A program made the position numbers and the translations under genes. The notes under the pieces were generated by a model. The model did no database searches. It saw nothing but the letters and a program-made list of their open reading frames with translations, and had not been told where the DNA came from. Shown one piece after another: positions 2,389-59,085 of a stretch of 64,000 bases of DNA (position 1 is the first letter of the stretch; every line of letters starts with the position of its first letter). Source of the stretch: an uncultured Gammaproteobacteria bacterium (lineage in GTDB: Bacteria > Patescibacteriota > Microgenomatia > UBA8517). The stretch covers positions 52,910 to 116,909 of the forward strand of contig CAZAXL010000001.1 of NCBI GenBank assembly GCA_964489145.1, given 5' to 3'.

Positions 2389-3441
2389 TTATTTATGATA
2401 GGCTCCCAGCGCAATTCCCAACCCCATTGTTGTGGCAAGGAGGGAGGATCCTCCCGCCGAAAGAAGTGGAAAGGGTAGCCCCGTTACCGGGAGCATACCC
2501 ATATTCATGCCAACATGCACAAAAAGTTGTATCAGATAGGTCAGGAAAAACCCGGAAAGGTACGCCCGTGCCTGAGGAGAAACAGCGTGTTCCATAAAAA
2601 AGGTAAGTCTTATAAGTATTAAAAAACTAGTAAGAAGAACAAATCCAGCCCCGACTAAGCCAAGCTCTTCCGCGGTTGCTGCAAAGACAAAGTCTGTTTG
2701 TTTTTCGGGTAAAAATGCCAACTGTGTCTGAACTCCTTTTCCGAGCCCCGTTCCGAAAATTTTTCCCGATCCCGCCGCAATTGTTGCCTGGATACTATTG
2801 TAACCTGCCCCTCTCGGATCCTTAGCCGGTTCCAAAAAAGAGGTAATTCTTTGTCTTTGATAAGGAGCCATTGCACGCCAGGCAATCGGTAAAATCGCTA
2901 CACCAATTAAGAGCCCGACAATTAGGTATTTTTTATTAAATTTAGAGGCCATTAATATACCGACAAATCCGACAATGGTTAGAATAGAAACTCCCAAAGA
3001 AGGCTGCGCCAGGATAAGCACCACCGGAAGAAGGAGAAGAAGAAGTGCTTTGCTAATCTTTTTTAAGGTTACTTCTCCCCTACCCAGGTAATTTGCAAAA
3101 AATACCAAAAGAAACGGTCTGATAATTTCCGCCGGTTGAAGACTTGTTGGCCCCAGCTGAATCCACCTGACGGTATTTCTGGTAACGCTTCCTATGACAA
3201 AAGTTAAAAGAAGAAGCGCAATGCTTATAATGTACAAATACTTGGAAAATAAAGAAATAATTTCGAAATCAATCATGGAAAAAATCCAAAAAACCAGAAG
3301 CGCTGTAAAAATATAAACAAAATAAAGAGGAAAAAGATTTTTTTCCAAAGAATTTAAGATCACAACACTAAAAGCCAGTAAGAATAGTATCGACAGGCTT
3401 AGGGTAATATCTTTAAACAAAAAATTAGTAACGGAACGCAT
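2389..3441 (-). CDS. SEDS-family peptidoglycan glycosyltransferase (RodA/FtsW family). This is the second SEDS gene in the window and lies outside the dcw cluster, so it is probably RodA-like.
   Basis: 350 aa, about 10 TM segments. The C-terminal conserved SEDS block is present (PEKQTDFVFAATAEELGLVG ... LPVTGLPFPLLSAGGSS). Confidence 0.8.
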   Translation of the reverse strand: MRSVTNFLFKDITLSLSILFLLAFSVVILNSLEKNLFPLYFVYIFTALLVFWIFSMIDFEIISLFSKYLYIISIALLLLTFVIGSVTRNTVRWIQLGPTSLQPAEIIRPFLLVFFANYLGRGEVTLKKISKALLLLLLPVVLILAQPSLGVSILTIVGFVGILMASKFNKKYLIVGLLIGVAILPIAWRAMAPYQRQRITSFLEPAKDPRGAGYNSIQATIAAGSGKIFGTGLGKGVQTQLAFLPEKQTDFVFAATAEELGLVGAGFVLLTSFLILIRLTFFMEHAVSPQARAYLSGFFLTYLIQLFVHVGMNMGMLPVTGLPFPLLSAGGSSLLATTMGLGIALGAYHK

Positions 3442-16132: not shown

Positions 16133-17353
16133 TCATTTTAAGGCATCAACAAGCTTGTCAAGATGAATGGAGCGTGAACCCTTTACAAAAAGGGCAGAAT
16201 TTTTGTCCAAAATTGGCTTAACAATCTCCAAAGCTTCAAGATAATCCGCCACTAAAAAGCAATTTTTATTTCCCCACTCACGGGAGGCTTCGTCTACCAT
16301 AAATCTTGCGGCATTGCCGACTCCGATAACGCAGTCAAATTTCATTTTTCCGACTTTTTTACCAAGTTCTCTGTGTGCACTTTCCTCAAATTTACCCAGC
16401 TCGAGCATGTCTCCAATTACAGCTATTTTCTTTTTACCCTTGGAAACTATCTCAAAAGTATCCAGGGATTCATTCGCCGCTTTAGGATTGCTGTTATAGC
16501 TGTCATCAAATATAATTCCGTACAACTTACTTCTAAAAATATTAAGCCTATGAGTCGGAGGCTTAAAAAGTTCTATTCCCCGGACAATTTGATTAATGCC
16601 TATACCAAGACTGTCGGCTGCGGCGGCAGAAGCCAGGGCATTGCTCACAAATTGGCTTCCCAATGCTTTCATATGAACAGTTTTTGTACTCTCATTAATT
16701 ACTAGGGTAAAATTAGTACTCAAATCAGGATTCAATCTGATATTTTTTGCATAAATATTGGCAGTGTTACCAAAAAATGCGACTTTACACGCCTCGCCAT
16801 TCCCCAGTGAGCATACCAGTTTGTCTTCTTTGTTAAGTATGGCTATACCATCAACGGATAGTCCCCTGATTAGTTTTCCTTTTTCACAAGCAACACCTTT
16901 TTCGTCCCCTAAAAATTGAGTGTGGGTAGCAGCGATATTGGTTATGATTCCAACGTCGGGCTTCGCAAGCCAGAGGTAATAATCCATTTCGTTTACATAT
17001 TCCACCGACATTTCAAGGATTAAATATTTTGTATCCGGAGTTGATCTGAGAATCGTGTTGGGGATATTATAAACAGGGTCTACCCCCTCCGCCGACCAAA
17101 CCGTTTTACCGACTCTACTAAGGATTGACGCTAAAATTTCGGTGGTGGTGGTCTTGCCGGTACTACCTGTAATGCCAATTACTTTAATATTTGTGTGTTT
17201 TTGCAAATACTTCAAGTAGGTTCTGGCAAGTCTTCTTTTAATCGGATGCGTCAGCCATTGGGAGACAAAATTATGCCTGGCAAATACATCTTCCGGGGGA
17301 AGCTTTGGAGTTACCCACCATTTGAGGACGGGGTTAATTTTTTTCGATTGCAT
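16133..17353 (-). CDS. murF: UDP-MurNAc-tripeptide--D-Ala-D-Ala ligase MurF
   Basis: Mur ligase P-loop GITGSTGKTTTTE and the central and C-terminal Mur ligase domains. Confidence 0.85.
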   Translation of the reverse strand: MQSKKINPVLKWWVTPKLPPEDVFARHNFVSQWLTHPIKRRLARTYLKYLQKHTNIKVIGITGSTGKTTTTEILASILSRVGKTVWSAEGVDPVYNIPNTILRSTPDTKYLILEMSVEYVNEMDYYLWLAKPDVGIITNIAATHTQFLGDEKGVACEKGKLIRGLSVDGIAILNKEDKLVCSLGNGEACKVAFFGNTANIYAKNIRLNPDLSTNFTLVINESTKTVHMKALGSQFVSNALASAAAADSLGIGINQIVRGIELFKPPTHRLNIFRSKLYGIIFDDSYNSNPKAANESLDTFEIVSKGKKKIAVIGDMLELGKFEESAHRELGKKVGKMKFDCVIGVGNAARFMVDEASREWGNKNCFLVADYLEALEIVKPILDKNSALFVKGSRSIHLDKLVDALK

Positions 17354-17387: not shown

Positions 17388-18317
17388 CTACGACTTGACT
17401 AAGTCGATGATTATATCGAGCAGACGGGGATATGAAATACCCGCTGCTTTTGCCGCCTTGGGAAAAAGAGACATCGGCGTAAGTCCAGGTATTGTATTGA
17501 TTTCCAAAACAACAGGAATCCTGCCGTCCTTTAAAATAAAATCAACTCTTCCAAAGCCACGGCATCCGACAATCCTGTAAACTTCCAGCGCAATTTTCTG
17601 GATTTTTTCCGTAAGGGTTTTCGAAATTCTAGCCGGAACTATTTCTTCCGACCCGCTTTCGGCATATTTTGATTCATAATCAAAAAAGCTTCCTTTTAGG
17701 GGTTTAATTTCCACGACCGGAAGTGCTATCGGTTTATCGTTGCCTATAACAGCACAGGTAAACTCTCTTCCTTTTATATATTTATCCACTAAAATTCTGT
17801 TGTCATACTTAAACGCCAGGTTCATGGATTTTTTAAGCTCCTTTAAATTTTTTGCCGGCGAAACACCTATCGAGGAACCTCCCTCGACCGGTTTCACAAA
17901 GTAAGGCGGAGCACCCAATGTTTTATAAACACTTTGATATTTTTCACCCTTCTTTAAAAACACATATTCGGGAATGAGTACTTTATGAAAATTCATTAAC
18001 TCCCGGAAAACTTCCTTATCCATTCCAATGGCAGACGCAAGCACGCCCGAACCAACGTATGAAATACCCATTGCTTCAAGGAAACCCTGAATTTTTCCAT
18101 CCTCTCCATATTTTCCGTGAAGGGCTAAAAAGGCGACATCCGGATCAATTTTGACAATTTTATTTAGTCCTTTTCCGTCTTTCGAAATTACCAGAGGATA
18201 AGCCAGATATTTCTTCTTATTTAAGTTTTTTATAACTTCCTTGCCGGACACTATTGATACCTCATGTTCCGATGACTTGCCACCCATTAGTACTGCTATT
18301 TTTAGTTTCTTTTTCAT
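17388..18317 (-). CDS. ddl: D-alanine--D-alanine ligase
   Basis: 309 aa ATP-grasp fold with EINTIPGLTPMSLFPK C-terminal motif. 4-nt overlap with murI. Confidence 0.9.
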   Translation of the reverse strand: MKKKLKIAVLMGGKSSEHEVSIVSGKEVIKNLNKKKYLAYPLVISKDGKGLNKIVKIDPDVAFLALHGKYGEDGKIQGFLEAMGISYVGSGVLASAIGMDKEVFRELMNFHKVLIPEYVFLKKGEKYQSVYKTLGAPPYFVKPVEGGSSIGVSPAKNLKELKKSMNLAFKYDNRILVDKYIKGREFTCAVIGNDKPIALPVVEIKPLKGSFFDYESKYAESGSEEIVPARISKTLTEKIQKIALEVYRIVGCRGFGRVDFILKDGRIPVVLEINTIPGLTPMSLFPKAAKAAGISYPRLLDIIIDLVKS

Positions 18318-19126
18318 TTTGCCAGTTCTACAATTTTTAAATCATTTTTTATCTTTTTCCCCAGAAACATCTCCGCAACCTTTGTGAATCTATCCGTAAG
18401 ATCCGTAACATAGAAGTCAGCAGCTCCCTGTTTTTTTTGCCTGTTCAATAAATTATTTTTTTTAAAAAAATCAAAAACTTCTTTTGCGACAGATTTTCCG
18501 GGATTGATTAAGGTAACACCCTTACCCATTGTTTCACTAATAATATTTTTGATGATGGGGTAGTGAGTACAACCCATGATTAGGGTATCTACTTTTTGTT
18601 TCTTAAGTTCGGACAAATACCCTTTTGCAATAATCTTTAGCGCCTTACCCTCTATCTCCCCTTCTTCAATAAAAGGGACAAAGAGGGGGCACGCTTTTTC
18701 AATAACTTTTGCCCGGGACAAATTTTTGGAGATATTTTTAGCGTAGGCATGGCTCCCTACGGTTCCGTATGTCCCGATAACCCCGATCGAACGGGTGCCT
18801 CGCAAAACTTCATTGGAAGCCGAGCTTATCACCTCAAATATCGGAATTTTTGGAAAAGTACTTTTCAGGAAGTCCGCCGCAACTGCCGAAGATGTGTTAC
18901 AGGCAATTACTACCGCTTTAACATTCTCTCCTATTAAAAATCTGGTATTTTCTTCGGAAAATCGCTTAATTGTTTCTACTCCGCGCGGGCCGTAAGGAAC
19001 CCTGGCGGTATCGCCCAAATACACCAAGTTTTCGTGCGGTAAAATTTTGGTTAGTTCTTTAACTACCGTTAAGCCCCCAAGGCCCGAGTCAAAAACCCCG
19101 ATAGGCTTGCCTTGCTCCTTTTGCAT
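18314..19126 (-). CDS. murI: Glutamate racemase
   Basis: GVFDSGLGGLTV, ACNTSSA and GCTHYP motifs. Confidence 0.9.
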   Translation of the reverse strand: MQKEQGKPIGVFDSGLGGLTVVKELTKILPHENLVYLGDTARVPYGPRGVETIKRFSEENTRFLIGENVKAVVIACNTSSAVAADFLKSTFPKIPIFEVISSASNEVLRGTRSIGVIGTYGTVGSHAYAKNISKNLSRAKVIEKACPLFVPFIEEGEIEGKALKIIAKGYLSELKKQKVDTLIMGCTHYPIIKNIISETMGKGVTLINPGKSVAKEVFDFFKKNNLLNRQKKQGAADFYVTDLTDRFTKVAEMFLGKKIKNDLKIVELAK

Positions 19127-19144
19127 AAGGGTATTATATGATAA

Positions 19145-20194
19145 TTATGCCCGATAGCCTAAAAGCGCGGACTTAACCAAAACACAGACCGCGTCCTGCT
19201 CCCTTTTGGTAATTTGAATTCCAAGCGGCAAGTAAATTATTTTTTGTTTCCTGGACCAACCCGAATCATTCAACTCAAACCTGACAAAAAGACCGTTTGT
19301 TCTTAAAAACTTTAAAATCCAGCCGGCATATTCTTTGCCTAAAATTACGGGATAAGCGCGCAGGTTGGCCTTGTCTTTACTGGAAAGGTTTATTCTTACT
19401 GGGAAAAATTTTCCCAGTTCTTTTTCGTAATAGATAGCTTGACGTTTTTTAATGTCATGAACTTTTCCGATATTTATTCTGGAACTTAAAAGGTTTGGCA
19501 GGAAAGGTCCCCGCGCTGGCAGCATTGAATCCCCTATTGTGGAATACCCCTTTAGCATTAATCCTTCTGCGATTCGACCAAATCTTAACGACCAGGAGAG
19601 GACCATTAAAGCCCAAAGCAGACTAACTTTGATTGAATAAAAAAACGATTGGTAAAAAGGCGGCACCGAAAAATTCAAATCTTCAACTCTTCCGTAAATA
19701 TTCGATCCCTGTAGGGGAACCACCTTTCTCAGACTATCGATAATAAAATGGTCTTTTTTAAAAATTTTAATTTCTTCGGGATCGACAATTCTATGAACAG
19801 AGTCCTCTATCAGGATTGAGCTTCCAGTTATTTTTTTAAGCCACTTTGGGTCGTCCACCAAGTTGCTTTTTATCCCGACAGGATGAAATATTACGATCAC
19901 ACTTGGCTTAATCTGGTCGATTTTTGACTTAAAGGATTTTTTGTCTGCCGTCAGGTTAGTATTGATCTTGTAGTAAACCGGCTTGTAGCCATGAAGCCTG
20001 ATGTTATTCTCAACGTCGCCGCAAAAAAAATCGGGAAGTAAAACAAATGATCCTTTGGGTACTTGTTTCTTGAGTAGAATATCCCAGAAAGCATCCTCCC
20101 AGGAAAGATAGAACAAACGTTTAATGCCTTCGGCAAGTTTATTCTTTTTAAATTTAAAATAACGTAAACTTAGGATTGGCTGCGTTGATGTCAT
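19145..20194 (-). CDS. Divergent DegT/DnrJ/EryC1/StrS-like (fold-type I PLP aminotransferase-like) protein inserted between murI and murD. Function unknown; it may be catalytically degenerate.
   Basis: 349 aa. The segment order mirrors the DegT family: GSFVLLPDFFCGD...GYKPVYYKI (compare GDeVivPsfTF...GAkPVFvD), IKPSVIVIFHPVG (compare tkAIipVHlyG), SSILIEDSVHRI (compare viEDaAqa), then KDHFIIDSLRKVVPLQGSNIYG (candidate Lys region). Identity is low. Confidence 0.35.
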   Translation of the reverse strand: MTSTQPILSLRYFKFKKNKLAEGIKRLFYLSWEDAFWDILLKKQVPKGSFVLLPDFFCGDVENNIRLHGYKPVYYKINTNLTADKKSFKSKIDQIKPSVIVIFHPVGIKSNLVDDPKWLKKITGSSILIEDSVHRIVDPEEIKIFKKDHFIIDSLRKVVPLQGSNIYGRVEDLNFSVPPFYQSFFYSIKVSLLWALMVLSWSLRFGRIAEGLMLKGYSTIGDSMLPARGPFLPNLLSSRINIGKVHDIKKRQAIYYEKELGKFFPVRINLSSKDKANLRAYPVILGKEYAGWILKFLRTNGLFVRFELNDSGWSRKQKIIYLPLGIQITKREQDAVCVLVKSALLGYRA

Positions 20195-20203
20195 GAATGG
20201 AGA

Positions 20204-21451
20204 TTATACAGCTGAACCTCTGAGTTTTAAAACTGAATTTTTGAACTGATTTCCTCTGTCTTTATAGTCTTTGAACATATCAAAACTGGCTGCTGCCGGC
20301 GACAGGATTACAATACCGCCTCTGGGGGTTGTCTCAAAAGCTTTCTTGACAATTTCCTCCATCGATGAATATCCCATGTTAATTACATTGCCTTGAAAGG
20401 TGTAACCCTTAAGGGTGTCGGCAATTTTATTTCCGACGTCGCCAATCAAAATAAGATTTTTGATGTTTTCTTTTTTCTCTATCTCGCGCATTAATTCCTG
20501 ATAATCCAACCCTTTATCGCTTCCGCCAAGAATCAGGGTTTCAGGTTCGGTAAACGAGTTTATCGCCGCAATTGTCGGCTGGGGGCCGGTTGCAAAAGAA
20601 TCGTTGTAAAAGGCTATTCCTTCTATCGTGTCAACCAACTCAAGTCTGTGTTCCAACCCTTTAAAAGACCTCACAGTTTCCAGAATCGTCTCCTCGTCAA
20701 TACCGACAATTTTTGTGGCAGCAACGGCAGCGGCAATATTTTCCAGATTATGCTCACCACGAAGAAGCAGATTCTCTTTGTATTTCTGTTCAAGCTCGGT
20801 CTTTGAGAAAAAAACTGTTTTTCCTTTTGCAGCTTCTACAAAACTTTTTGATGTTTCATATTCTTCATTTAATATTGCGAAATCGTCGGGACTCTGGTGA
20901 CTCACGATATTTTTCTTGGCCTCTATATATTCTTCTTTACTCTTATGCCAATCCATATGATCAAGGGTGATATTTAAAACTACCGCAATATGCGGACTTT
21001 TGGTTAAATCGATTAACTGAAAAGAAGAAAGCTCCATTATTACAAAACTGTTTTTTGTGAGTTTTGGAAGAAGTTCCAAATAAGGTTTCCCAATATTCCC
21101 TACCAGATAAACGTCTTTTCCGGCATTCTTAAGAATTTCATAAATCAAAGTTGAAGTTGTTCCTTTTCCCTTTGTTCCGGTTACGCCGATAATATTTCCC
21201 GGACAATTATCAAAAAATATTTTTAAAGAGGATGTTATTTTAACCCCGTTTTCTTCGGCTTTTACAATTTCGGGCAGATATCTGTAAACACCCGGAGAAC
21301 GGACAACAATATTAAAGTCATCCAGGTTTTTAAGATAATTTTCATCAAATTTCTTATCTAAAATAGTGACTTCGTCTCCAAGATCCTTGAAGTACTTTTC
21401 TGCATCCTGACCTTCAAGACCATATCCCAAAATTGCAATTTTATTATTCAT
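20204..21451 (-). CDS. murD: UDP-MurNAc-L-Ala--D-Glu ligase MurD
   Basis: GVTGTKGKGTTSTL P-loop and Mur ligase fold. Confidence 0.9.
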   Translation of the reverse strand: MNNKIAILGYGLEGQDAEKYFKDLGDEVTILDKKFDENYLKNLDDFNIVVRSPGVYRYLPEIVKAEENGVKITSSLKIFFDNCPGNIIGVTGTKGKGTTSTLIYEILKNAGKDVYLVGNIGKPYLELLPKLTKNSFVIMELSSFQLIDLTKSPHIAVVLNITLDHMDWHKSKEEYIEAKKNIVSHQSPDDFAILNEEYETSKSFVEAAKGKTVFFSKTELEQKYKENLLLRGEHNLENIAAAVAATKIVGIDEETILETVRSFKGLEHRLELVDTIEGIAFYNDSFATGPQPTIAAINSFTEPETLILGGSDKGLDYQELMREIEKKENIKNLILIGDVGNKIADTLKGYTFQGNVINMGYSSMEEIVKKAFETTPRGGIVILSPAAASFDMFKDYKDRGNQFKNSVLKLRGSAV

Positions 21452-22531: not shown

Positions 22532-23709
22532 AAATAGCTTTTTCCTGCTCCCATTACCAAAATAACATCTCCCTGTTTAACTTCTTCCGATAACATTTTC
22601 TTAATTTTTTCAAAAGAATTAATCCCAATCGCGTTTTTGTTGCCGGTGGCACGGGCAACATCTTCCGGAGTTATCCCAAAAGTTTCACTGTCACGGGCTT
22701 TAAAAATCGGTCCAACTATAATTTTATCCGCCGCATTAAAAACTCCATCATATTTCGGAAGAAGTGTGTGGGTCCGCGCAAACCCGTGCGGTTCATCAAT
22801 TACCCAAATTCTTGATTCGGGAAATTCTTTTCTTAAACCTTCAATCGTTGTTTTTATGGCTGTCGGATGGTGAGCATAATCATCAAAAATCTTTACGCCA
22901 CCGCGATCCGCGATAAGCTCCATTCTCCTCCCGATTCCGGAAAAGCTCTCTAGGGATTTAACAATGGTCTCTTCGGCTATTCCCAACTTTTTACCCAAAA
23001 CATAAACCAAGTTTGCATTCTTTTGATTGTGTTCTCCAAAAATTTTTAAATTAAACTTTTCCCCAGGATTGTCTTTTTCCGTAATTAAAATTTTTTCTCC
23101 TTTAAGATTATTCACAAATTTTCTGAAAGCTTCCCGCACTTCCTCTTCGTTTTTGAAAAAATCGGGGTGGTCAAACTCAATATTGTTAATCACAATTATG
23201 TCGGGATGGTAATTTAGGAAATTATTATTAAATTCGTCTGCCTCGATTACAAAATATTCTCCTTTGCCGAACCTTGCATTTGCCTCCCATTCCGGTATTT
23301 TTGCGCCGACAACAACTGAGGGATCCAAACCTGCATCAACTAAAAGCTTACCTACCATTGCTGTTGTTGTGGACTTGCCGTGGGTGCCCGCAATGCAAAT
23401 TACTTTCTTACCCTCGGTTAAATATTTTCCGAGAAACTCCTGCCAAGTCATTACGATTTTTCTTTTTTCCGCCTCGACAAGCTCCGGATTTTCTTTATTT
23501 TGATAATAAATTGCAGGCGAAACTATAAGAAAGTCTATTCCTTCCAGGTGGTTTGGATCGTGTCCTTTAAAAAAATTCTTAGCATATGCGGTCTGCTCCT
23601 CCAGGTCACAGCCCGTAACCTCATAGCCCATTTTGGAGGCAAGGAGGGCGATGGCCGACATTCCACTCCCGCCGATTCCCATCATGTGGATCTTTTTTAA
23701 TTTATTCAT
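22501..23709 (-). CDS. murC: UDP-MurNAc--L-Ala ligase MurC
   Basis: N-terminal MMGIGGSGMSAIA Rossmann region, P-loop IAGTHGKSTTTAM. 8-nt overlap with the murE-fusion gene. Confidence 0.9.
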   Translation of the reverse strand: MNKLKKIHMMGIGGSGMSAIALLASKMGYEVTGCDLEEQTAYAKNFFKGHDPNHLEGIDFLIVSPAIYYQNKENPELVEAEKRKIVMTWQEFLGKYLTEGKKVICIAGTHGKSTTTAMVGKLLVDAGLDPSVVVGAKIPEWEANARFGKGEYFVIEADEFNNNFLNYHPDIIVINNIEFDHPDFFKNEEEVREAFRKFVNNLKGEKILITEKDNPGEKFNLKIFGEHNQKNANLVYVLGKKLGIAEETIVKSLESFSGIGRRMELIADRGGVKIFDDYAHHPTAIKTTIEGLRKEFPESRIWVIDEPHGFARTHTLLPKYDGVFNAADKIIVGPIFKARDSETFGITPEDVARATGNKNAIGINSFEKIKKMLSEEVKQGDVILVMGAGKSYLWAREIAELI

Positions 23710-25711
23710 TGAAAGTTCCCAATCTTTCTTCCATTTTTATCCTGGCTTTTTCCAATTCCTCAGGAGTATTTATTCCCTGCCATTCACTGTCATCCGGCAA
23801 AGTATAGGTTGCCATCCTCATCCCCTGATCAATTGCCATCTTAATTAAATCTACCAAATAGTATTCGCCCTGCTTGCTCTTTTTGACATTATTAATGTTT
23901 TTGGCAAACCAGCCTTTATCGAAAACATAAAGGCCGTCATTAACCTCTTTAATCTTCTTTTCCTCGGGCGTAGCATCTTTTTCTTCAACAATTTTTGTAA
24001 TAAGACCGTTTTTACCTCTGATAACCCTGCCAAGCCCGGTTGGGTTATTTTTCATAAGTGAGACAAATGTCAGTGCCCTTTGCCTCTCAAGGTGGGTCTT
24101 AATAATTTGCCTGATTGTTTCCGGCTTGTAAAAGGCACTGTCATCTCCGTTTATAACAATCAGTATTTTTGAAGAAGGGGGTATTTTTACAAAACCCGCT
24201 CTGGCCGCATCCGCAGTTCCTCCCTTGGGATTTTTCTGTATAGCAAGATCAATGGCACCTTTAATGTACCTTGCCACCTGATTCCTTTTAAAAGAAATCA
24301 CCGCGGTAACGCTTCCCACTCCTGCGGATCTTAAATTTTCCAATGTGTAGGCAATCATCGGCCGGCCACAAATTTTATGAATAACTTTAGGTAGAGTGGA
24401 TTTCATTCTCGTTCCTTTTCCAGCAGCCAGAATCACGGCAGATATGTCCTTACTTCTGCCCAGAAAGTTTTCAACTATTCCCTTGTCGCTCCAAGGGTGT
24501 TCGTAAGATCCGTATGCCATACTTTTTTCGTGGCCTTTTCCTAAAATTGCGACCGTGTCTTCTTTTTTACAAAGAGAAAGGGCATAGGCAATTGCTTCAC
24601 CACGCTCCGCAATTTTGAAAAAAGTTTTATCTTCTTTGGCGTTTGCACTTCTTGCTCCTTCCGACATTTTTGACAAGATGTCAAAGACATTCTCGCTTCT
24701 CGGATCCTCCGCGGTAAAAACGGAAACGTCGCTTAGCTTTGCCGAAATTTTGCCCATTTTAAATCTTTTTCTTGGGTCTCTTTCCCCTGCACACCCGAAG
24801 ACGGAAATAAGTTTTCCCCGAGTAGTCCCGCGAAGATGGGTCAATACCGCCTCAAGCGAATCCGGAGTATGCGCAAAATCTATAATAATGTTTGCGCCTA
24901 TGTTGTTTTTTATTTCGGCAAGTCTTCCTTCCGGCAGTCTAAAATCTTTAAGCGCTTTCAGGGCACTATTCCGTGAGATGCCAAATTTTTCGACCGCTGA
25001 GATAGCCGCCTCGACATTCAAATTATTGTATTTTCCCGGCAATACATTTATGGAGGTGTCTTTAGGAGAAATAACTTTCCATTTACAGGAATTTATAAAT
25101 GACTTTTTTACCCTTTTATACTCTTTGAAGGTTTTGTGATAATCCAAATGCTCCGGCGCTATATTGGTTAATACCCCAACGTCAAAGTGAACCCCGGCAA
25201 TTCTTTTTTGGTCGATCCCGTGAGAACTGACTTCGACAACTGCATATTCGTCCCCATCATCGACAAATTTCTTTAGGAATTTGTGCAAAGAAATTACATC
25301 AGGAGTTGTAACATGAAGGCCGGGTACTGAAATTGAGGATAAAATTCCAACTCTTTTTCCAAGGGAATTTAAGATGTGATAAATAATGTGCGCGGTCGTG
25401 GTTTTTCCTTTCGTTCCGGTAACCCCGATCACTTTAAGTTTTTCGGAAGGACGGCCAAACCAAACGGACGCAAGCTGCCCCAGGGCTTCACGGCTGTCCG
25501 TAACTTTAAGATAATTCCCGATTTTAATATCCTTTTCGCCCACCACCAGGGAAGCGCCGTTTTTGAAAGCGTCTTCAATGTAGTCGTGGCCGTCACGTCC
25601 GACGCCTCTGACGGCAACAAAAATATAGCCTTTTTCAACCTTTCTCGAGTCGTCGGTCAAACCTTTGTAACCGGAAAGCTTTCCGGTTAATTCCTCAAGA
25701 TTTTTGATCAT
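23702..25711 (-). CDS. murE: Fusion protein: MurE (UDP-MurNAc-dipeptide--diamino acid ligase, aa ~1-425) plus a C-terminal GlmU-type GlcNAc-1-P uridyltransferase domain (aa ~430-669). The GlmU LbH acetyltransferase domain is absent.
   Basis: N-part: Mur ligase P-loop VIGVTGTKGKTTTAHI and MurE organisation. C-part: ILAAGKGTRMKSTLPKVIHKICGRPMI, GLGRVIRGKNGLITKIVEEKDATPEEKKIKEVNDGLYVF and KQGEYYLVDLI align motif-for-motif with E. coli GlmU residues 1-230 (LAAGKGTRM, GYGRI..ENG.V..IVE.KDAT.EQ..I.EIN.G, AQGEYYITDII). Confidence 0.85.
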   Translation of the reverse strand: MIKNLEELTGKLSGYKGLTDDSRKVEKGYIFVAVRGVGRDGHDYIEDAFKNGASLVVGEKDIKIGNYLKVTDSREALGQLASVWFGRPSEKLKVIGVTGTKGKTTTAHIIYHILNSLGKRVGILSSISVPGLHVTTPDVISLHKFLKKFVDDGDEYAVVEVSSHGIDQKRIAGVHFDVGVLTNIAPEHLDYHKTFKEYKRVKKSFINSCKWKVISPKDTSINVLPGKYNNLNVEAAISAVEKFGISRNSALKALKDFRLPEGRLAEIKNNIGANIIIDFAHTPDSLEAVLTHLRGTTRGKLISVFGCAGERDPRKRFKMGKISAKLSDVSVFTAEDPRSENVFDILSKMSEGARSANAKEDKTFFKIAERGEAIAYALSLCKKEDTVAILGKGHEKSMAYGSYEHPWSDKGIVENFLGRSKDISAVILAAGKGTRMKSTLPKVIHKICGRPMIAYTLENLRSAGVGSVTAVISFKRNQVARYIKGAIDLAIQKNPKGGTADAARAGFVKIPPSSKILIVINGDDSAFYKPETIRQIIKTHLERQRALTFVSLMKNNPTGLGRVIRGKNGLITKIVEEKDATPEEKKIKEVNDGLYVFDKGWFAKNINNVKKSKQGEYYLVDLIKMAIDQGMRMATYTLPDDSEWQGINTPEELEKARIKMEERLGTFNE

Positions 25712-25774: not shown

Positions 25775-26947
25775 ATGAGGGAACCCAAAAGAGTTTATCT
25801 GATCGATTTTGACAACACCCTTTTTGATACCGATGCCCTAAAAAGATCCATCTCCGAAAATTTCAAAAAAAGATTTAGCGATAAAAACTTATCCCTGTTT
25901 TGGAAAACTTACGCCGAATCAATTAAAGCTTTGAGGTATGTTGATATTAAAGAAATTTCCAAAGATTTACACAAAAAGTTCGGGGACGGTTCGGTAGAAG
26001 ATTTTGAGGACTTGTTTTTGAAAGCAGAGTTTAAAAAATTCGTTTTCAAGCACTCGGACAAACTAATAAAAACATTGAAAGATCGAGGGAAAGTAATTCT
26101 CTACTCCCTGGGTGATGCCCATTATCAACCCACCAAAATAAAAGGGAGCGGAATCGAAAAATTAATAGGCAAAAGCAATATTGTAATTCTGAAAAATAAA
26201 AAAACCGCAATCGGGGGTACAATTCTGAAATTCAAAGCGTCCGGCTATAACCAAATAATAATGGTGGATGATAGAGCCGATTTTCTGGAAAAAGCTAAAA
26301 GAGTTGATCCGGGCTGCATTACTGTCTGGTTCAGGTTTGGAAAATATAAGAATATTCTGCCAAAGGATAAAATGTCGATTGATTACGAAACGGATTCTTC
26401 CGAAAATCTTATTCATTATCTGAAAAATTTCGTAGGCATCTTGTCTCAAAGGAATATAAAAGAAAATATTTCTATATTAAGAGAAATTTCCAAGCCCCAA
26501 ATTGAACAACTAATTCACTCAACCGGCAAAGACAAATTGATCAAAAAATTTACACATGACAGGGAACGTTTCAGCTCATTCAAGGCCTTTATTTCCTGGA
26601 AAAAGCGTGGAAAAAAAATTTATGTAATGGTCGGGCGTAGAAATAAACTCCTCGGAATAATTTGGTTTAGCAGCAAAGCCGCACCGGCGAGTGTTTCCAA
26701 AGTTTTAAAGACATCTAATTGTGGCTACACTTTTGCGATAAGAAATTATCCTCCGGCCCGCCGCAAAGGACTTTCATCAAAATTTATGTATATTGTTTTT
26801 AAAGATTTTTGTGTATCCAATGAAAAAGGGGTCTGGCTTAGCACGGCGAAAGATAACATCCCTGCGAACAAACTTTATATAAACTACGGATTTAAGAAAA
26901 TTGCGGACTTGAAAGAAAACCGAATTATTTACACTTTTAGGGGTTAA
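25775..26947 (+). CDS. Two-domain protein: N-terminal HAD-superfamily hydrolase/phosphomutase-like domain fused to a C-terminal GNAT-fold acetyltransferase domain. It is the only plus-strand gene inside the dcw block, divergent from the murE-glmU fusion.
   Basis: HAD motif I LIDFDNTLFDT (DxDxT), motif II S in YSLGD, motif IV MVDDRADF. The C-terminal ~150 aa have GNAT-like beta-strand pattern and terminal ANKLYINYGFKKI. Confidence 0.55.
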   Translation: MREPKRVYLIDFDNTLFDTDALKRSISENFKKRFSDKNLSLFWKTYAESIKALRYVDIKEISKDLHKKFGDGSVEDFEDLFLKAEFKKFVFKHSDKLIKTLKDRGKVILYSLGDAHYQPTKIKGSGIEKLIGKSNIVILKNKKTAIGGTILKFKASGYNQIIMVDDRADFLEKAKRVDPGCITVWFRFGKYKNILPKDKMSIDYETDSSENLIHYLKNFVGILSQRNIKENISILREISKPQIEQLIHSTGKDKLIKKFTHDRERFSSFKAFISWKKRGKKIYVMVGRRNKLLGIIWFSSKAAPASVSKVLKTSNCGYTFAIRNYPPARRKGLSSKFMYIVFKDFCVSNEKGVWLSTAKDNIPANKLYINYGFKKIADLKENRIIYTFRG

Positions 26948-29150: not shown

Positions 29151-30155
29151 TTAAAGACTATTCAAAATTGCCGCACGAAGTTTATCCGGATCATGACGTA
29201 TCATACTTCTGTTGAGAGCATCCCCTTTTTCTTTCTCCGGAATTTTATCGGAAAGGAGGTCTGTTCTGATTATTTTAACTCCATTACCAAAAATTTTAGT
29301 CTTTAAATCATCCTTTACAGGGAATGTGTTTTCAAGTGCATAAGCTTTAAGGGCGGGCTTTGGAAAATTATTGTTGCTGTTAACCAGGACTTTTTTCACA
29401 AGCCCAAGCGGCATATATTTTTTCAGGTCGGCAAAAAAGTCCGACAACGCATATCCCGGAGTCTCACTGCGTGAATTCATTAGATTGGCGATAAATAGAA
29501 TCTCTCCTTTGGATTTTTTTAAAGCATTTACGACACCGTCAACCACCAGGTTGGCAATTGTATTGGTATAAAAATCTCCCGGCCCGATAATTATGAGGTC
29601 TGCTTCCAAAATTGCTTTTTTTGCCTTGGAATTCAGCTTCACAGCCGGTAAAATCTTCAGATTCTTAATTCTGACTCCTGCACTTCTGGATATATCTATA
29701 TTGTGTTCGCCGACAGCCTCGGAACCGTCTTCATATTTAGCCATTAATCTGGCATTGTCATAGCTAATCGGAATAATATCTCCTTTTACCTGTAAAAGAC
29801 GGCAGGTTTCTTCTATTCCTCTTTTTTGCGAACCCATTATGTCAGCCATTGCAGCCATAAATAGATTCCCAAAAGTCATTCCGTCCAGACCCGCTCCCCC
29901 TTTACTGTAGCGGTATGTGAACAATTTTCTCAAAACGGTTTTATTTTCGGATAGAGCAACTATTGCCTGTCTAATGCCTGATGTCGGAAGCAAACCAAAT
30001 TCGTCGCGGATTATTCGGTTTGAACCTCCGTCATCCACCATCGTCATCAACATCGTAATGTGAACAGGAGCACGGCTTAATCCTGAAGCAACAACATACG
30101 AACCTGTCCCTCCTCCAATAATAACAACGTGGGGAATTTTACTCATTCTTTTCAA
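29151..30155 (-). CDS. YvcK/CofD-family (UPF0052, gluconeogenesis-factor/CuvA-like) protein
   Basis: VVIIGGGTGSYV, MVDDGGSNRIIR, IIIGPGDFYTNTIANL motifs. Sits between glmS and murA. Confidence 0.8.
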   Translation of the reverse strand: MKRMSKIPHVVIIGGGTGSYVVASGLSRAPVHITMLMTMVDDGGSNRIIRDEFGLLPTSGIRQAIVALSENKTVLRKLFTYRYSKGGAGLDGMTFGNLFMAAMADIMGSQKRGIEETCRLLQVKGDIIPISYDNARLMAKYEDGSEAVGEHNIDISRSAGVRIKNLKILPAVKLNSKAKKAILEADLIIIGPGDFYTNTIANLVVDGVVNALKKSKGEILFIANLMNSRSETPGYALSDFFADLKKYMPLGLVKKVLVNSNNNFPKPALKAYALENTFPVKDDLKTKIFGNGVKIIRTDLLSDKIPEKEKGDALNRSMIRHDPDKLRAAILNSL

Positions 30156-36909: not shown

Positions 36910-37383
36910 CTAACGGTTCAAAAACCAAACGGAGAAATTTAATACGGAAGCAAAACTTACCCAAGCAATATATGGATAAAGCAGGTAACTGGCGGTTTTA
37001 TTTACTTTCGCGAAAGCCAATATTGTTTTTAGTATAAAAATCCACATAAAAATAATTACCATCAAAGCCAGAAAAAGATTTTTTGCTCCAAAAAATATAG
37101 GCGACCAGGAAGCATTTAATACCAACTGAATTCCGAAAAGTTTTATGGCCTCCCGTACTTTTTTATCCTTCGTCCCTTTTCGCCAAACAAGAAAAAGCGC
37201 AATTCCCATTAATAAATAAAGGATTGTCCAGGCAGGACCAAAAAGCCAGTTGGGTGGACTGAAAAATGGTTTATTAAGACCCGCGTACCAAGTCGGAATT
37301 GCAGGAATAGTAAATATAGTTCCAAGTCCGGCAGCCAGAAAACACACCAGGATAGAAGCGAATAACTTGAGCAGTTTACTCAT
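36910..37383 (-). CDS. tspO: TspO/MBR-family tryptophan-rich sensory protein
   Basis: 157 aa, 5 TM. NKPFFSPPNWLFGPAWTILYLLMGIALFLVW and the conserved Trp/Pro pattern. Confidence 0.75.
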   Translation of the reverse strand: MSKLLKLFASILVCFLAAGLGTIFTIPAIPTWYAGLNKPFFSPPNWLFGPAWTILYLLMGIALFLVWRKGTKDKKVREAIKLFGIQLVLNASWSPIFFGAKNLFLALMVIIFMWIFILKTILAFAKVNKTASYLLYPYIAWVSFASVLNFSVWFLNR

Positions 37384-37420
37384 TCTTTTAGGCTACCACA
37401 TATGTATAATTGGTATCAAT

Positions 37421-38458
37421 ATGCTGCCAAAAATTAAATTTTCAAAAGATGGTGTTCTATTTGGCGCGGCTCTCATTGCGATTTTTTTTCTGGTCTTCGG
37501 CATCACTTATCTTAGTTTAAAAATATCCAATGTGTTTGTTAAAAAGGATTTAAATCCGACTACCAATTTATATACGAACACGGCCCCGGAGCCAATTGAT
37601 GCCACCAAAGGAGTTTTTAATATCCTTCTGCTTGGCTACGGCGGCAGTGGCCACTCAGGAGGAGGCCTTACCGACAGTTTAATTGTCTTTCACATCGATA
37701 CCAACACAAAAAAATACGCGCTCATCTCCATACCCAGGGATTTATGGACACAGGCAAACCGCAAGATAAACGCCGAGGCTTCGGTAAATGGCTTTCAAAG
37801 CGTTGGGCCTGCGCTTCAAGCTATAACCGGCCTTCCGATTGAGAACTTTATTTCGGTGGATTTTACAAATTACTCCAAAATTATCAACAACCTCGGAGGT
37901 ATTAGTGTCGAAGTCCCGAATGCATTTACAGACTCCTTTTATCCAATTCCCGGTCTTGAAAATGAGACTTGCGGCTTTACCGAAAACGAAATCAATGAAT
38001 TTAAAGCAAAATATTCCGGGTTTGAGCTGGAAAAACAATTTACATGCCGCTATGAAAAAATTAGCTACAATCAGGGCCCTGCGGTTCTTACAGGGAGCGA
38101 GGCTCTAAAATTCGTCCGCTCGCGCCACGGTGACAGCGATTTCGGCAGAAGCAAACGGCAATTTGCAGTTATTGCCGGCATCGCCAAAAAATTAATATCT
38201 CTCAAGTCAGTTGGAAAACTTGATTCGACAATCGATGCTTTATCAAACATGATCAAAACCGATTTGACTATGGGGAAAATTAAAAGTTTGATTGAAATAT
38301 TTGGAGACCTGACCCCTTACTCAAAAACAGAAGTTCAATTAACAACGGATAACGTTTTAAATGAAAGCAAAAGTAGCGACGGACAATATATTCTGATCCC
38401 CAAAGCCGGAATGTTTAATTTTACGGATATTAAAAGCTACATTTCCCAAAACATTTAA
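37421..38458 (+). CDS. LytR-CpsA-Psr (LCP) family glycopolymer phosphotransferase. The track ORF start at 37250 overlaps tspO; ATG 37421 (MLPKIKF...) immediately precedes the TM anchor.
   Basis: N-terminal TM followed by the LCP core ILLLGYGGSGHSGGGLTDSLIVFHID...ISIPRDLW. Confidence 0.75.
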   Translation: MLPKIKFSKDGVLFGAALIAIFFLVFGITYLSLKISNVFVKKDLNPTTNLYTNTAPEPIDATKGVFNILLLGYGGSGHSGGGLTDSLIVFHIDTNTKKYALISIPRDLWTQANRKINAEASVNGFQSVGPALQAITGLPIENFISVDFTNYSKIINNLGGISVEVPNAFTDSFYPIPGLENETCGFTENEINEFKAKYSGFELEKQFTCRYEKISYNQGPAVLTGSEALKFVRSRHGDSDFGRSKRQFAVIAGIAKKLISLKSVGKLDSTIDALSNMIKTDLTMGKIKSLIEIFGDLTPYSKTEVQLTTDNVLNESKSSDGQYILIPKAGMFNFTDIKSYISQNI

Positions 38459-45848: not shown

Positions 45849-45867
45849 GCATTAATAATACAACAAA

Positions 45868-46518
45868 TCAGACGGCTCCGACACCGCTAATCATTGCGAT
45901 TGGGGTTCTCAGGATAATGGCCAAGTCCATTAAGAGTGATTTCTTTCTGGCATAGTCCGCATCCATTTTTATTCTCTTGTCGAAATTGATATTGCTTCTC
46001 CCGGTTACCTGCCAAAAGCCGGTGATGCCCGGTTTTACCGTTTGAGTCTCTTTTACGTACGGCTCCGTCCCGGGATATCTTTTTTGCTGCTCGGCAAGCT
46101 CATCGGCATGATACGGACGGGGTCCTACTATACTCATCTCACCCTTTAAAACATTTAAAAATTGGGGCATTTCATCGATGGAATATTTTCTGATAAATTT
46201 TCCGAACCTGGTCACGCGTGGGTCCTCATGAAGTTTAAAACTGGACTTTTTATATTCGCTGTAAAGTTTTTTGAATCTGGGATCTTTTGTTAAAAGATAA
46301 TCGGCATTAACTGCCATCGAACGGAATTTGTAAAGCCTGAAAATTCTTCCCCCCCTGCCAATTCTTTTCATATGAATATTTGATTTTTCAACCAGGATAG
46401 GCCCGGAAGAAGTTAGTTTGATTACAAGAGCGGTAACAAGCATTAATGGAGAAAAAAGAACCAAAAGAAATATTGATAAGACAATATCCATACCTCTTTT
46501 AACAATTTCGTATAACAT
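45868..46518 (-). CDS. Initiating polyprenyl-phosphate sugar-1-phosphate transferase (bacterial sugar transferase, small PglC/WcaJ-C-domain type)
   Basis: KRGMDIVLS...FSPL N-terminus, KFRSM, DEMPQFLNVLKGEMSIVGPRP catalytic block. Confidence 0.85.
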   Translation of the reverse strand: MLYEIVKRGMDIVLSIFLLVLFSPLMLVTALVIKLTSSGPILVEKSNIHMKRIGRGGRIFRLYKFRSMAVNADYLLTKDPRFKKLYSEYKKSSFKLHEDPRVTRFGKFIRKYSIDEMPQFLNVLKGEMSIVGPRPYHADELAEQQKRYPGTEPYVKETQTVKPGITGFWQVTGRSNINFDKRIKMDADYARKKSLLMDLAIILRTPIAMISGVGAV

Positions 46519-46522
46519 ATTT

Positions 46523-47677: not shown

Positions 47678-47683
47678 TAGCTA

Positions 47684-49877: not shown

Positions 49878-49884
49878 AAATTTT

Positions 49885-51943: not shown

Positions 51944-51945
51944 AG

Positions 51946-56834: not shown

Positions 56835-56889
56835 ATTACTAATTCTAAATTTAAAATTGGGATTTTAATTAAAATTTTTAATTTATAAT

Positions 56890-59081: not shown

Positions 59082-59085
59082 TTTA

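What the first reader, a model, noticed from the sequence alone, without database searches (positions are those of the whole stretch)
19145..20194. Divergent DegT-like (PLP aminotransferase fold) protein embedded between murI and murD
The dcw order is normally contiguous here. This 349-aa ORF retains the DegT/DnrJ/EryC1 segment order (GxxVxxPxFT..., IEDxxH..., a candidate PLP-Lys region) but at low identity. An extra sugar-aminotransferase-fold protein in the PG operon could modify a UDP-sugar or the stem-peptide precursor. It could also be a non-catalytic paralogue recruited to the divisome.
Basis: partly seen in the sequence, partly recalled or inferred. Interest (0 to 1): 0.5.

Follow-up and report, generated by a model that had tools for sequence, protein, structure and literature searches.

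The report
Divergent PLP enzyme in cell-wall operon
A real, conserved gene between murD and murI encodes a very divergent relative of the DegT sugar aminotransferases; it belongs to an unnamed protein family found only in Microgenomates-type ultrasmall bacteria, and its gene neighbours hint, without proving, that it helps supply the D-amino acids of the cell wall.

Summary
Window 19145-20194 (-) is a 349-aa gene under purifying selection (dN/dS 0.15), 9 bp after murD and 18 bp before murI.

The protein itself matches no Pfam, NCBIfam or PDB sequence. It belongs to an unnamed family of about 230 clusters at 50% identity, seen almost only in Microgenomates and Dojkabacteria.

Down to 19% identity the family keeps D131 (the Asp that binds the cofactor ring nitrogen), S154-x-R156-K157 and C58, so a catalytic PLP enzyme is likely. 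However, C58 replaces the ring-stacking aromatic residue and the lysine loop is 2-3 residues shorter than in DegT.

The mur-operon position is confined to one Woesebacteria-like clade (at least 52% identity). Elsewhere the gene sits beside dnaG-rpoD, mutL, rplS or upp.

In that clade the murD-murF slot never holds this gene together with both racemases (0 of 13). Slots without it hold murI and alr together in 3 of 5. This fits a D-Ala/D-Glu-linking aminotransferase, but the evidence is weak because ddl also leaves the slot.

Function is unproven.

The parts
19145..20194 (-). 349-aa coding sequence: divergent DegT-like fold-type I PLP enzyme of an unnamed Microgenomates family
19724..19735 (-). 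S154-L-R156-K157: candidate Schiff-base lysine loop, just after strand f of the large domain
   Evidence: S154, R156 and K157 are invariant in 46 sequences down to 19% identity. K157 is the only Lys conserved at 80% or more. S154 aligns with ArnB S183, and the loop is 3 residues shorter, so the spacing is S-x-x-K instead of S-x-x-x-x-K. The register relative to ArnB K188 differs by 1-2 residues between alignments.
19793..19810 (-). I129-E-D131-S-V-H134: strand e with the Asp expected to bind the PLP ring nitrogen
   Evidence: D131 is invariant and H134 is 87% conserved. The motif aligns with the ArnB/WecE [VI]-E-D-A-A-[HQ] motif in every alignment.
20012..20035 (-). P54-D-F-F-C58-G-D-V: invariant Cys in place of the PLP-stacking aromatic residue of DegT enzymes
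   Evidence: P54 and C58 are invariant. C58 aligns with W, F or Y of the DegT 'P-x-x-T-[WFY]' motif.
20090..20104 (-). S31-W-E-D34-A: start of the helix that corresponds to the phosphate-binding S-G-T-(D)-A motif of DegT
   Evidence: S31 and D34 are nearly invariant. The segment aligns with S-G-T-D-A or S-A-T-A-G of DegT chains. The Gly and Thr of that motif are not kept.
19580..19663 (-). Residues 178-205: family-specific insertion forming a hydrophobic or amphipathic helix (FFYSIKVSLLWALMVLSWSL)
   Evidence: It has no counterpart in ArnB in the hhalign alignment. It is a helix at 184-202 in the model, with pLDDT above 94.
20204..21451 (-). murD, immediately upstream; the constant neighbour of the gene in the Woesebacteria-like clade
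   Evidence: Pfam hits. The murD adjacency holds in every locus of at least 52% identity that has upstream sequence, except the partial L109.
18314..19126 (-). murI (glutamate racemase), immediately downstream
   Evidence: PF01177 hit at 1e-17.
17388..18317 (-). ddl-like ORF (named from its position and the Ddl Pfam calls on its homologues in relatives), then murF at 16133-17353; together they close the murD-murF 'amino-acid supply' slot
   Evidence: ORFs. Pfam call for murF. The ddl ORF was not scanned against Pfam here. Homologues identified by blast of the window ORF lie in the same slot and carry Dala_Dala_lig domains in L003, L051 and L113-L118.

Best explanation
The gene encodes a soluble, catalytically competent, PLP-dependent enzyme. 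It belongs to a very divergent, unannotated branch of the DegT/DnrJ/EryC1 (fold-type I) aminotransferases.

Inferred chemistry:
- PLP is held as a Schiff base on K157.
- D131 binds the ring nitrogen.
- S154 and R156 take over phosphate binding from the lost Gly-Thr motif.
- The invariant C58 lies on the ring face where DegT enzymes have an aromatic residue.

In this Woesebacteria-like lineage the gene is co-transcribed with murD, murI, ddl and murF. The most likely role is an amino-acid-level step that feeds the stem-peptide ligases.

The most specific version is an aminotransferase linking the D-Ala/pyruvate and D-Glu/2-oxoglutarate pairs. With such an enzyme, a cell needs only two of three genes: glutamate racemase, alanine racemase and this one.

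Shown here: the gene is real, the fold, homology to DegT, conservation of cofactor-site residues, operon position, clade distribution, and the pattern of slot contents.

Inferred only: PLP binding, the Lys register, the substrate, and any link to D-amino acids.

Probabilities: about 0.9 that it is a PLP-fold DegT relative; about 0.35 for a peptidoglycan amino-acid role; about 0.2 for the D-Ala/D-Glu version.
For: Fold and homology. In addition, 8 of 42 and 10 of 46 relatives weakly hit PF01041 (best 2e-9). A Dojkabacteria member hits ArnB directly, and a canonical CPR DegT hits this ORF by tblastn at 6e-4.

Active-site conservation: P54, C58, D131, S154, R156, K157 and P323 are invariant across 46 sequences down to 19% identity. 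K157 is the only conserved Lys.

Operon membership: gaps of 9 and 18 bp, no intergenic terminator-like site, and selection similar to the mur genes.

Slot pattern in relatives:
- murD-X-murI-ddl-murF: window, L008, L009, L010, L013, L054, L056, L063
- murD-X-murI-murF: L052, L116
- murD-X-ddl-alr-murF: L051
- murD-X-alr-murF: L011
- murD-murI-ddl-alr-murF, without X: L113, L114, L115

Counts: 0 of 13 complete slots with the gene hold both racemases, against 3 of 5 without it.

Contig-length fingerprints give 14 contigs with the gene plus MurI, 2 with the gene plus Alr, 5 with MurI plus Alr, and none with all three.

L010 (murI-ddl) and L011 (alr) are sister lineages with 84% NJ bootstrap support, so the racemase partner switched recently.

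No Alr is encoded in the 64-kb window.

Precedent: Thermotoga maritima lacks MurI and makes D-Glu with the D-amino-acid aminotransferase TM0831 (PMC9790342).
Against: - The mur-operon placement is confined to one clade and may trace to few relocation events. In Roizman-, Gottesman-, Ames- and Dojkabacteria relatives the gene lies next to dnaG-rpoD, mutL, rplS-rnhB, upp and others, with no recurring peptidoglycan neighbour.
- ddl is indispensable, yet it is also missing from the slot in L011, L052 and L116. Genes therefore do move elsewhere, and the 'missing' racemase may simply sit elsewhere in the genome.
- L117 (murI-ddl only) and L118 (ddl-alr only) have neither the gene nor a second racemase in the slot.
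- Whole genomes could not be searched.
- To my knowledge no DegT-family enzyme is known to act on D-amino acids; known D-amino-acid transaminases are fold-type IV.
- The central substrate-binding region does not align to DegT in HMM searches.
Confidence: 0.35

Rival explanations
1. It is a conventional DegT-type aminotransferase. It moves the amino group of L-Glu onto a keto-sugar (nucleotide-linked or phosphorylated) to make an amino sugar for a wall glycopolymer or a modified peptidoglycan glycan.
For: All the closest structures and every significant PDB profile hit are sugar aminotransferases such as WecE, QdtB, ArnB, PseC and NtdA. The C-terminal domain and the 'LPL' motif are the best-conserved parts. 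The window also encodes an LCP ligase and a large glycosyltransferase cluster.
Against: None of about 100 loci has an adjacent dehydratase or dehydrogenase that would make the keto-sugar, and none places the gene in a glycosyltransferase cluster. The motifs that form the DegT active site are changed: S-G-T is lost, the stacking aromatic residue is Cys, and the Lys loop is shortened. In L052 a canonical DegT lies in the same operon, so the two are not interchangeable.
Confidence: 0.22
2. It is a housekeeping PLP enzyme unrelated to peptidoglycan, for example a general L-amino-acid aminotransferase or a cysteine-desulfurase-like enzyme that uses C58. On this reading its position in the mur operon of one clade is incidental gene packing.
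For: Across most of the family the neighbours are unrelated core genes: dnaG-rpoD, mutL, rplS-rnhB, upp, clpB and yebC. No neighbour family recurs across clades. The S-x-[R]-K-x5-G spacing resembles the S-x-H-K-x5-G motif of class V enzymes (my recollection of those motifs). Microgenomates genomes are nearly co-directional, so operon-like packing is common (PMC7143001).
Confidence: 0.28
3. It is a non-catalytic paralogue with the PLP fold, acting as a scaffold or regulator of Mur enzymes or the divisome.
For: The phosphate-binding Gly-Thr and the stacking aromatic residue of DegT are lost. The protein falls below Pfam thresholds.
Against: D131, S154, R156, K157 and C58 are strictly invariant down to 19% identity, while surface positions vary freely (mean column identity 29%). 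That is the pattern of an active site. dN/dS is 0.15.
Confidence: 0.07
4. It is a replacement for alanine racemase, a fold-type I racemase supplying D-Ala where alr is absent.
For: alr is the only stem-peptide gene missing from the window's otherwise complete cluster (glmS, murA-F, murI, ddl, mraY, murG). An invariant Cys on the face opposite the Lys could act as a second base.
Against: The gene lies directly beside a canonical alr in L011 and L051. It also shares a 3.6-kb contig length with another Alr.
Confidence: 0.05

Closest known systems
DegT/DnrJ/EryC1/StrS sugar aminotransferases (Pfam PF01041), e.g. E. coli WecE (4piw), ArnB (1mdo), H. pylori PseC (2fn6)
   Different: Only 11-17% identity, and the protein fails Pfam's own model. 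S-G-T becomes S-[WFY]-x-D. The stacking aromatic residue becomes an invariant Cys. The Lys loop is 2-3 residues shorter (S-x-R-K). About 25 N-terminal residues are missing and a 25-residue helix is inserted after strand g. No neighbour makes a keto-sugar.
Class I/II aminotransferases of the HisC/CobD type (PF00155)
   Different: Scores are lower than for DegT. The C-terminal domain and the L-P-L motif are DegT-like. The phosphate-binding Arg eight residues after the Lys is absent.
D-amino-acid aminotransferase (Dat; T. maritima TM0831), EC 2.6.1.21
   Same: This is the physiological role proposed here. It links D-Ala and D-Glu so that one racemase suffices; T. maritima lacks MurI (PMC9790342).
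   Different: Known enzymes are fold-type IV (PF01063). This protein is fold-type I and has no PF01063 hit. The resemblance is in the inferred function only.
YlmE/YggS, the PLP-binding protein of Gram-positive dcw clusters
   Same: It is a PLP-fold protein of unsettled function encoded inside a division and cell-wall cluster (from my own knowledge).
   Different: YggS is fold-type III (a TIM barrel) and is not homologous to this protein.

Membership tests
Fold-type I PLP-dependent enzymes | Large domain with a seven-stranded sheet plus a small C-terminal domain | tested here: met
Fold-type I PLP-dependent enzymes | Asp at the end of strand e that binds the pyridine nitrogen | tested here: met
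   D131 is invariant. It aligns with the ArnB/WecE E-D in all alignments.
Fold-type I PLP-dependent enzymes | Schiff-base Lys in the loop after strand f | tested here: inconclusive
   K157 is invariant, is the only conserved Lys, and lies 4 residues after strand f. Sequence alignments place it 1-2 residues away from ArnB K188, beside a 3-residue deletion. Coordinates and a cofactor-bound model were not available.
DegT/DnrJ/EryC1/StrS (PF01041) | Match to the Pfam model at its curated threshold | tested here: not met
   No Pfam hit at E<=1 for this protein. Only 8 of 42 and 10 of 46 relatives give weak hits (best 2e-9).
DegT/DnrJ/EryC1/StrS (PF01041) | Profile-level homology over the full length | tested here: met
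   The A2 profile against the PDB gives 45 hits, and all 27 with E below 0.01 are DegT-family enzymes, best WecE at 2.1e-11. hhalign against ArnB+WecE+CPR DegT gives 99.0-99.6%, E 5e-18 and 4e-23, over 321 columns.
DegT/DnrJ/EryC1/StrS (PF01041) | S-G-T phosphate-binding motif and the aromatic residue stacking on PLP (P-x-x-T-[FWY]) | tested here: not met
   The aligned residues are S31-W32-E33-D34 and P54-D-F-F-C58, and C58 is invariant.
DegT/DnrJ/EryC1/StrS (PF01041) | S-[FL]-x-x-x-K lysine motif | tested here: not met
   The family motif is [DN]-S-x-R-K, i.e. S-x-x-K. The loop is 3 residues shorter than in ArnB.
DegT/DnrJ/EryC1/StrS (PF01041) | Keto-sugar substrate made by a neighbouring dehydratase or oxidoreductase | tested here: not met
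   No such neighbour was found at about 100 loci. The enzymatic test was not possible.
D-amino-acid aminotransferase (fold-type IV, PF01063) | Fold-type IV architecture and a PF01063 match | tested here: not met
   No Pfam hit, and the fold is type I. Only a functional analogy is proposed.
Alanine racemase (PF01168/PF00842) | TIM-barrel fold-type III domain, and occurrence in place of alr | tested here: not met
   No Pfam hit. The gene co-occurs beside a canonical alr in L011 and L051.
PLP-dependent enzyme (any) | Actually binds PLP and turns over a substrate | not testable with these tools
   This needs purified protein (absorbance near 420 nm, a K157A mutant, half-reactions).

The most novel reading that the evidence does not exclude
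The family is a previously unrecognised, fold-type I (DegT-derived) aminotransferase specific for D-amino acids, interconverting D-Ala + 2-oxoglutarate and pyruvate + D-Glu. This would give Microgenomates a 'two of three' system made of MurI, Alr and this enzyme, in which either racemase can be lost. It would be a third evolutionary solution to D-amino-acid supply for peptidoglycan, and the first D-amino-acid chemistry in the DegT lineage.
Probability: 0.2. Interest if true: 0.75.

Novelty: new variant of a known kind. Interest (0 to 1): 0.5.

Why it matters
Patescibacteria are a large part of bacterial diversity, yet they have minimal metabolism and how they build their walls is poorly understood. 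Here a conserved, unannotated enzyme sits in the middle of the muropeptide-precursor operon of one major lineage, and it is labelled 'hypothetical' in every database.

If it supplies or interconverts D-amino acids, it would explain how some of these genomes manage with a single racemase. It would also extend DegT-fold chemistry beyond sugars and add a lineage-specific step in cell-wall synthesis.

Even if the role proves ordinary, the family deserves its own profile model. Current annotation pipelines miss it, and gene callers often truncate it.

Tried and rejected
1. Alanine-racemase replacement. This was my first idea, because alr is the only stem-peptide gene missing from the cluster. I rejected it as the general explanation once a canonical alr was found directly beside the gene in L011 and L051.

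2. A link to the NUDIX gene that sits between murD and the gene in L010, L052 and L073, and three genes upstream in Gottesmanbacteria. The two NUDIX proteins share only generic 30% Nudix-box similarity, so I dropped this.

3. Search for a neighbour that recurs across clades, by all-vs-all clustering of the +/-5 genes around the gene. Only clade-specific synteny blocks appeared. Those neighbours are primase, sigma-70, MutL, L19, RNase HII, UPRTase and ClpB.

4. Sequence-only searches with the single protein or the close-clade profile A1 found nothing in Pfam, NCBIfam or the PDB. Only the broader profile A2 reached DegT.

5. Fold search against afdb50 was unavailable.

6. Whole-genome presence or absence of alr and murI could not be checked. 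As a proxy I matched contig lengths between the three protein searches. This gives positive co-location only, not absence.

7. The promoter and terminator scan of 12-27.5 kb was not above shuffled expectation. A TTTAAA-17-TATAAT match at the end of murD is unremarkable.

8. Literature searches for CPR/Patescibacteria alanine racemase, DegT in mur clusters, or fold-type I D-amino-acid transaminases found nothing on this family.

9. Model coordinates are not exposed, so side-chain geometry around K157, C58 and R156 could not be inspected.
Full report
**1. The observation**

The ORF listing returns an ATG-started 349-aa ORF at 19145..20194 on the minus strand. Along the minus strand the order is:
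- murD (20204-21451)
- this ORF
- murI (18314-19126)
- a ddl-like ORF (17388-18317)
- murF (16133-17353)
- mraY, ftsW, murG, a weak FtsQ-like ORF, ftsA, ftsZ

Upstream of murD lie murB, murC, a MurE::nucleotidyltransferase fusion, glmS, a CofD-like gene, murA, a PBP and mraW. The ddl-like ORF was named from its position and from the Ddl Pfam calls on its homologues in relatives.

The gaps to murD and murI are 9 and 18 bp. No terminator-like site falls in those gaps.

The named motifs are present:
- G48xxV51xxP54xF56
- I129-E-D-S-V-H134
- a lysine region, S154-L-R-K157

The gene is real. It has 234 homologues in the 5.8-billion-protein set. dN/dS against relatives of 87-90% identity is 0.15-0.16, against 0.07-0.18 for murB, murD, murI, ddl and murF.

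**2. What it is**

On its own the protein matches nothing in Pfam, NCBIfam or the PDB sequence set. A profile of close relatives (A1) also finds nothing in the PDB.

Structure prediction with that alignment is very confident: pLDDT 96.5 and pTM 0.93. The model has the seven strands of a fold-type I large domain and a small C-terminal domain.

Fold searches agree:
- Foldseek against the PDB puts DegT-family enzymes among the top hits: a Brucella DegT, ArnB, PseC, TlmJ and Spr1654. E is about 1e-11 and TM is 0.60-0.65. The C-S lyases LdPatB and MetC are also in the top ten.

Homology is also visible in sequence once the family's diversity is used:
- An exhaustive profile search finds 230 cluster representatives at E<=1e-10 and 141 at E<=1e-30.
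- A 46-sequence alignment reaching 19% identity (A2) hits 45 PDB sequences. All 27 with E below 0.01 are DegT-family enzymes, led by WecE at 2.1e-11.
- hhalign of A2 against ArnB+WecE+a CPR DegT gives 99.0-99.6% probability, with E 5e-18 (local) and 4e-23 (global), over 321 columns.
- 8 of 42 and 10 of 46 members weakly hit PF01041.

The protein is a distant DegT relative that current family models miss.

**3. Anatomy of the active site**

Across A2 the invariant residues are P54, C58, D131, S154, R156, K157 and P323. S31, D34, F56, G107, H149, G163, G221, Y256 and P282 are at least 90% conserved. K157 is the only Lys conserved at 80% or more.

The alignments give this mapping:
- I-E-D131-x-x-H134 lies on the DegT [VI]-E-D-A-A-[HQ] strand. 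D131 is thus the Asp for the pyridine nitrogen.
- S154 lies on the Ser of the DegT S-F-H motif.
- C58 lies on the aromatic residue of P-x-x-T-[WFY], which stacks on the cofactor.
- S31-W-E-D34-A lies on the phosphate-binding S-G-T-(D)-A helix start.

The lysine loop is 3 residues shorter than in ArnB. The spacing becomes S-x-x-K, as in class I, II and V enzymes, rather than S-x-x-x-x-K. The three alignments place K157 one to two residues from ArnB K188.

The family also lacks about 25 N-terminal residues of DegT. It has a 25-residue helix inserted after strand g (residues 178-205).

I read this as a functional but remodelled PLP site. As inference, R156 probably replaces the lost Thr as a phosphate ligand. 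The role of C58 is open; it could be steric or a second catalytic base.

Strict invariance of these residues, against a mean column identity of 29%, argues against a non-catalytic paralogue.

**4. Distribution and context**

Every source that names the protein calls it 'hypothetical'.

A scan of GTDB species genomes returned 43 loci. The taxonomically informative titles name Woese-, Roizman-, Gottesman-, Ames- and Dojkabacteria, or 'Patescibacteria/Microgenomates group'. The exceptions are two Saccharibacteria, one Magasanikbacteria and one partial Bdellovibrionota hit. Many 'uncultured Gammaproteobacteria/Pseudomonadales' MAG titles are presumably mislabels. The best match is Ca. Woesebacteria UBA8517 at 87% identity. 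A JGI metagenome scan added 60 loci.

Context splits sharply by relatedness. Every locus of at least 52% identity that has upstream sequence places the gene right after murD, apart from the partial L109. A NUDIX gene sometimes intervenes. Every locus at or below 50% identity has it elsewhere:
- after dnaG-rpoD in Gottesmanbacteria
- between mutL and rplS-rnhB in Dojkabacteria
- before a 676-aa protein and upp
- after a PNPOx-like gene in Roizmanbacteria UBA6242
- in other assorted places

No neighbour family recurs across clades. The 'insertion into the dcw cluster' is therefore a derived, clade-specific arrangement. It is not a property of the whole family.

**5. A pattern inside the clade**

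The segment between murD and murF carries the amino-acid supply genes, and its content varies. Writing X for the gene:
- X-murI-ddl: window, L008, L009, L010, L013, L054, L056, L063
- X-murI: L052, L116 (in L116 the gene call is truncated but the ORF is full-length)
- X-ddl-alr: L051
- X-alr: L011

Related clusters without X carry:
- murI-ddl-alr: L113, L114, L115
- murI-ddl: L117
- ddl-alr: L118

So 0 of 13 complete X-bearing slots hold both racemases, and 3 of 5 X-less slots do.

Matching contig lengths across the three protein searches gives 14 contigs with X+MurI, 2 with X+Alr, 5 with MurI+Alr, and none with all three.

An NJ tree of MurD+MurF+MraY shows two things:
- The X-less clade that holds the three two-racemase slots (L113-115, L117) has 100% support and is sister to the X-bearing L052.
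- L010 (murI-ddl) and L011 (alr) are sisters with 84% support. The racemase partner therefore changed recently.

Any two of {MurI, Alr, a D-Ala/D-Glu transaminase} suffice to make both D-amino acids. The three observed pair types, and the absence of the triple, are what such a system predicts. Thermotoga maritima gives a precedent: it lacks MurI and makes D-Glu with a D-amino-acid aminotransferase (PMC9790342).

The caveats are serious:
- ddl, which is indispensable, is also absent from the slot in L011, L052 and L116, so genes do relocate.
- L117 and L118 have only one of the three genes in the slot.
- The loci are not phylogenetically independent.
- Whole genomes could not be searched.
- To my knowledge, known D-amino-acid transaminases are fold-type IV, and no DegT relative is known to handle D-amino acids.

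**6. Explanations weighed**

I give about 0.9 to 'a PLP-fold, DegT-derived enzyme of an undescribed family' and about 0.07 to a non-catalytic role.

For the physiological role, my estimates are:

| Reading | Probability |
|---|---|
| Amino-acid-level step feeding the stem-peptide ligases (D-Ala/D-Glu transaminase version about 0.2) | about 0.35 |
| Unrelated housekeeping PLP enzyme, operon position incidental | about 0.28 |
| Conventional keto-sugar aminotransferase | about 0.22 |

The keto-sugar reading is favoured by what the nearest structures do. It is disfavoured by the lack of any partner enzyme or glycosyltransferase context, by the altered motifs, and by the canonical DegT that sits in the same operon in L052.

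A straight alanine-racemase replacement is largely excluded, because a canonical alr lies directly beside the gene in L011 and L051.

**7. Comparison and novelty**

The protein works on a DegT-like scaffold. It is a member of the DegT superfamily by profile and by fold. It fails several features that define the curated family: the Pfam threshold, the S-G-T motif, the stacking aromatic residue, the S-F-x-x-x-K motif and the keto-sugar partner context.

I file it as a new variant of a known kind: an unnamed subfamily, restricted almost entirely to Microgenomates and Dojkabacteria, with its own signature:
- [FY]-[LF]-S-[WFY]-x-D-[AG]
- P-x-[FY]-[FY]-C-x-[DE]
- I-[ED]-D-x-x-H
- H-[FY]-x-[IV]-[DN]-S-x-R-K-x5-G

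**8. Verdict**

The functional reading is open.

Interest is moderate (0.5). The gene is a conserved enzyme of unknown function inside the muropeptide operon of a major uncultured lineage. It comes with a testable hypothesis that is currently weakly supported and would be notable if true.

Noticed in passing
window 23702-25711 (-) and 25775-26947 (+): MurE is fused to a GlmU-type nucleotidyltransferase domain (Mur_ligase N/M/C plus NTP_transferase, 669 aa) that lacks the left-handed beta-helix acetyltransferase part. The same fusion (663-684 aa) recurs in L008, L010, L011, L051 and L114-L117. Other relatives (L003/L009, L052) have a separate murE and a full-length glmU. The divergently transcribed neighbour is a HAD-hydrolase::GNAT acetyltransferase fusion, which might supply the missing acetyl-transfer or phospho-sugar step.
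   Followed up: partly
window 1-64000: Almost every ORF of at least 150 aa lies on the minus strand, and GC skew is negative in 31 of 32 2-kb bins. This matches the extreme strand asymmetry and near-unidirectional gene orientation reported for the Microgenomates genome Ch65 (PMC7143001).
   Followed up: no
L052 13157-16087: In one relative, three genes are inserted between murF and mraY: an alpha/beta hydrolase, a canonical DegT (PF01041, 401 aa) and a FemAB-family peptidyltransferase. The divergent DegT-like gene is in the same operon, after murD-NUDIX. This suggests lineage-specific elaboration of the peptidoglycan precursor.
   Followed up: no
L003 5660-7981; L052 6055-8265; L117 3563-5755; L118 3506-5977: Mur enzymes are fused into single ORFs in relatives: MurB::MurD (773 aa) and MurC::MurB (730-823 aa).
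   Followed up: no
L025 9463-9966 (also L024): In Roizmanbacteria UBA6242 the gene directly upstream of the homologue, on the same strand, is a PNPOx-like protein (pyridoxamine-5'-phosphate-oxidase family; PF01243, 1.6e-8). This is a small hint of a link to PLP or PMP handling.
   Followed up: no
L116 5969-7017; proteins P0035, P0039-P0042: Gene callers truncate several homologues to 314-324 aa by starting at an internal codon, which removes the S-W-E-D-A strand-helix. In L116 the full 349-aa ORF is intact from the ATG at 5969. These short entries are annotation artefacts, not degraded genes.
   Followed up: yes
window 29151-30155 (-): A CofD/YvcK-family gene sits between murA and glmS. The same position is kept in relatives (L010, L011, L051, L052, L114, L115).
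   Followed up: no
window 24400-24440 (-), within MurE: The MurE segment reads T-A-E-D-P-R, where DAP-adding enzymes have D-N-P-R (motif recalled from memory, not tested). The retained Arg may bear on which diamino acid occupies position 3 of the stem peptide.
   Followed up: no
window 43860-62221 (-): A long co-directional polysaccharide cluster is present: DUF4012, a mannose-1-P guanylyltransferase-like gene, several GT4 and GT2 glycosyltransferases, a Wzy_C ligase/polymerase and two PMT_2 proteins. An LCP (LytR-CpsA-Psr) gene lies at 37250-38458 (+). The window contains no canonical DegT or sugar dehydratase.
   Followed up: partly
window 2389-3441 (-): There is a second FtsW/RodA/SpoVE-family gene about 11 kb downstream of the ftsW in the mur cluster, next to the isoleucyl/valyl-type tRNA synthetase gene.
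   Followed up: no
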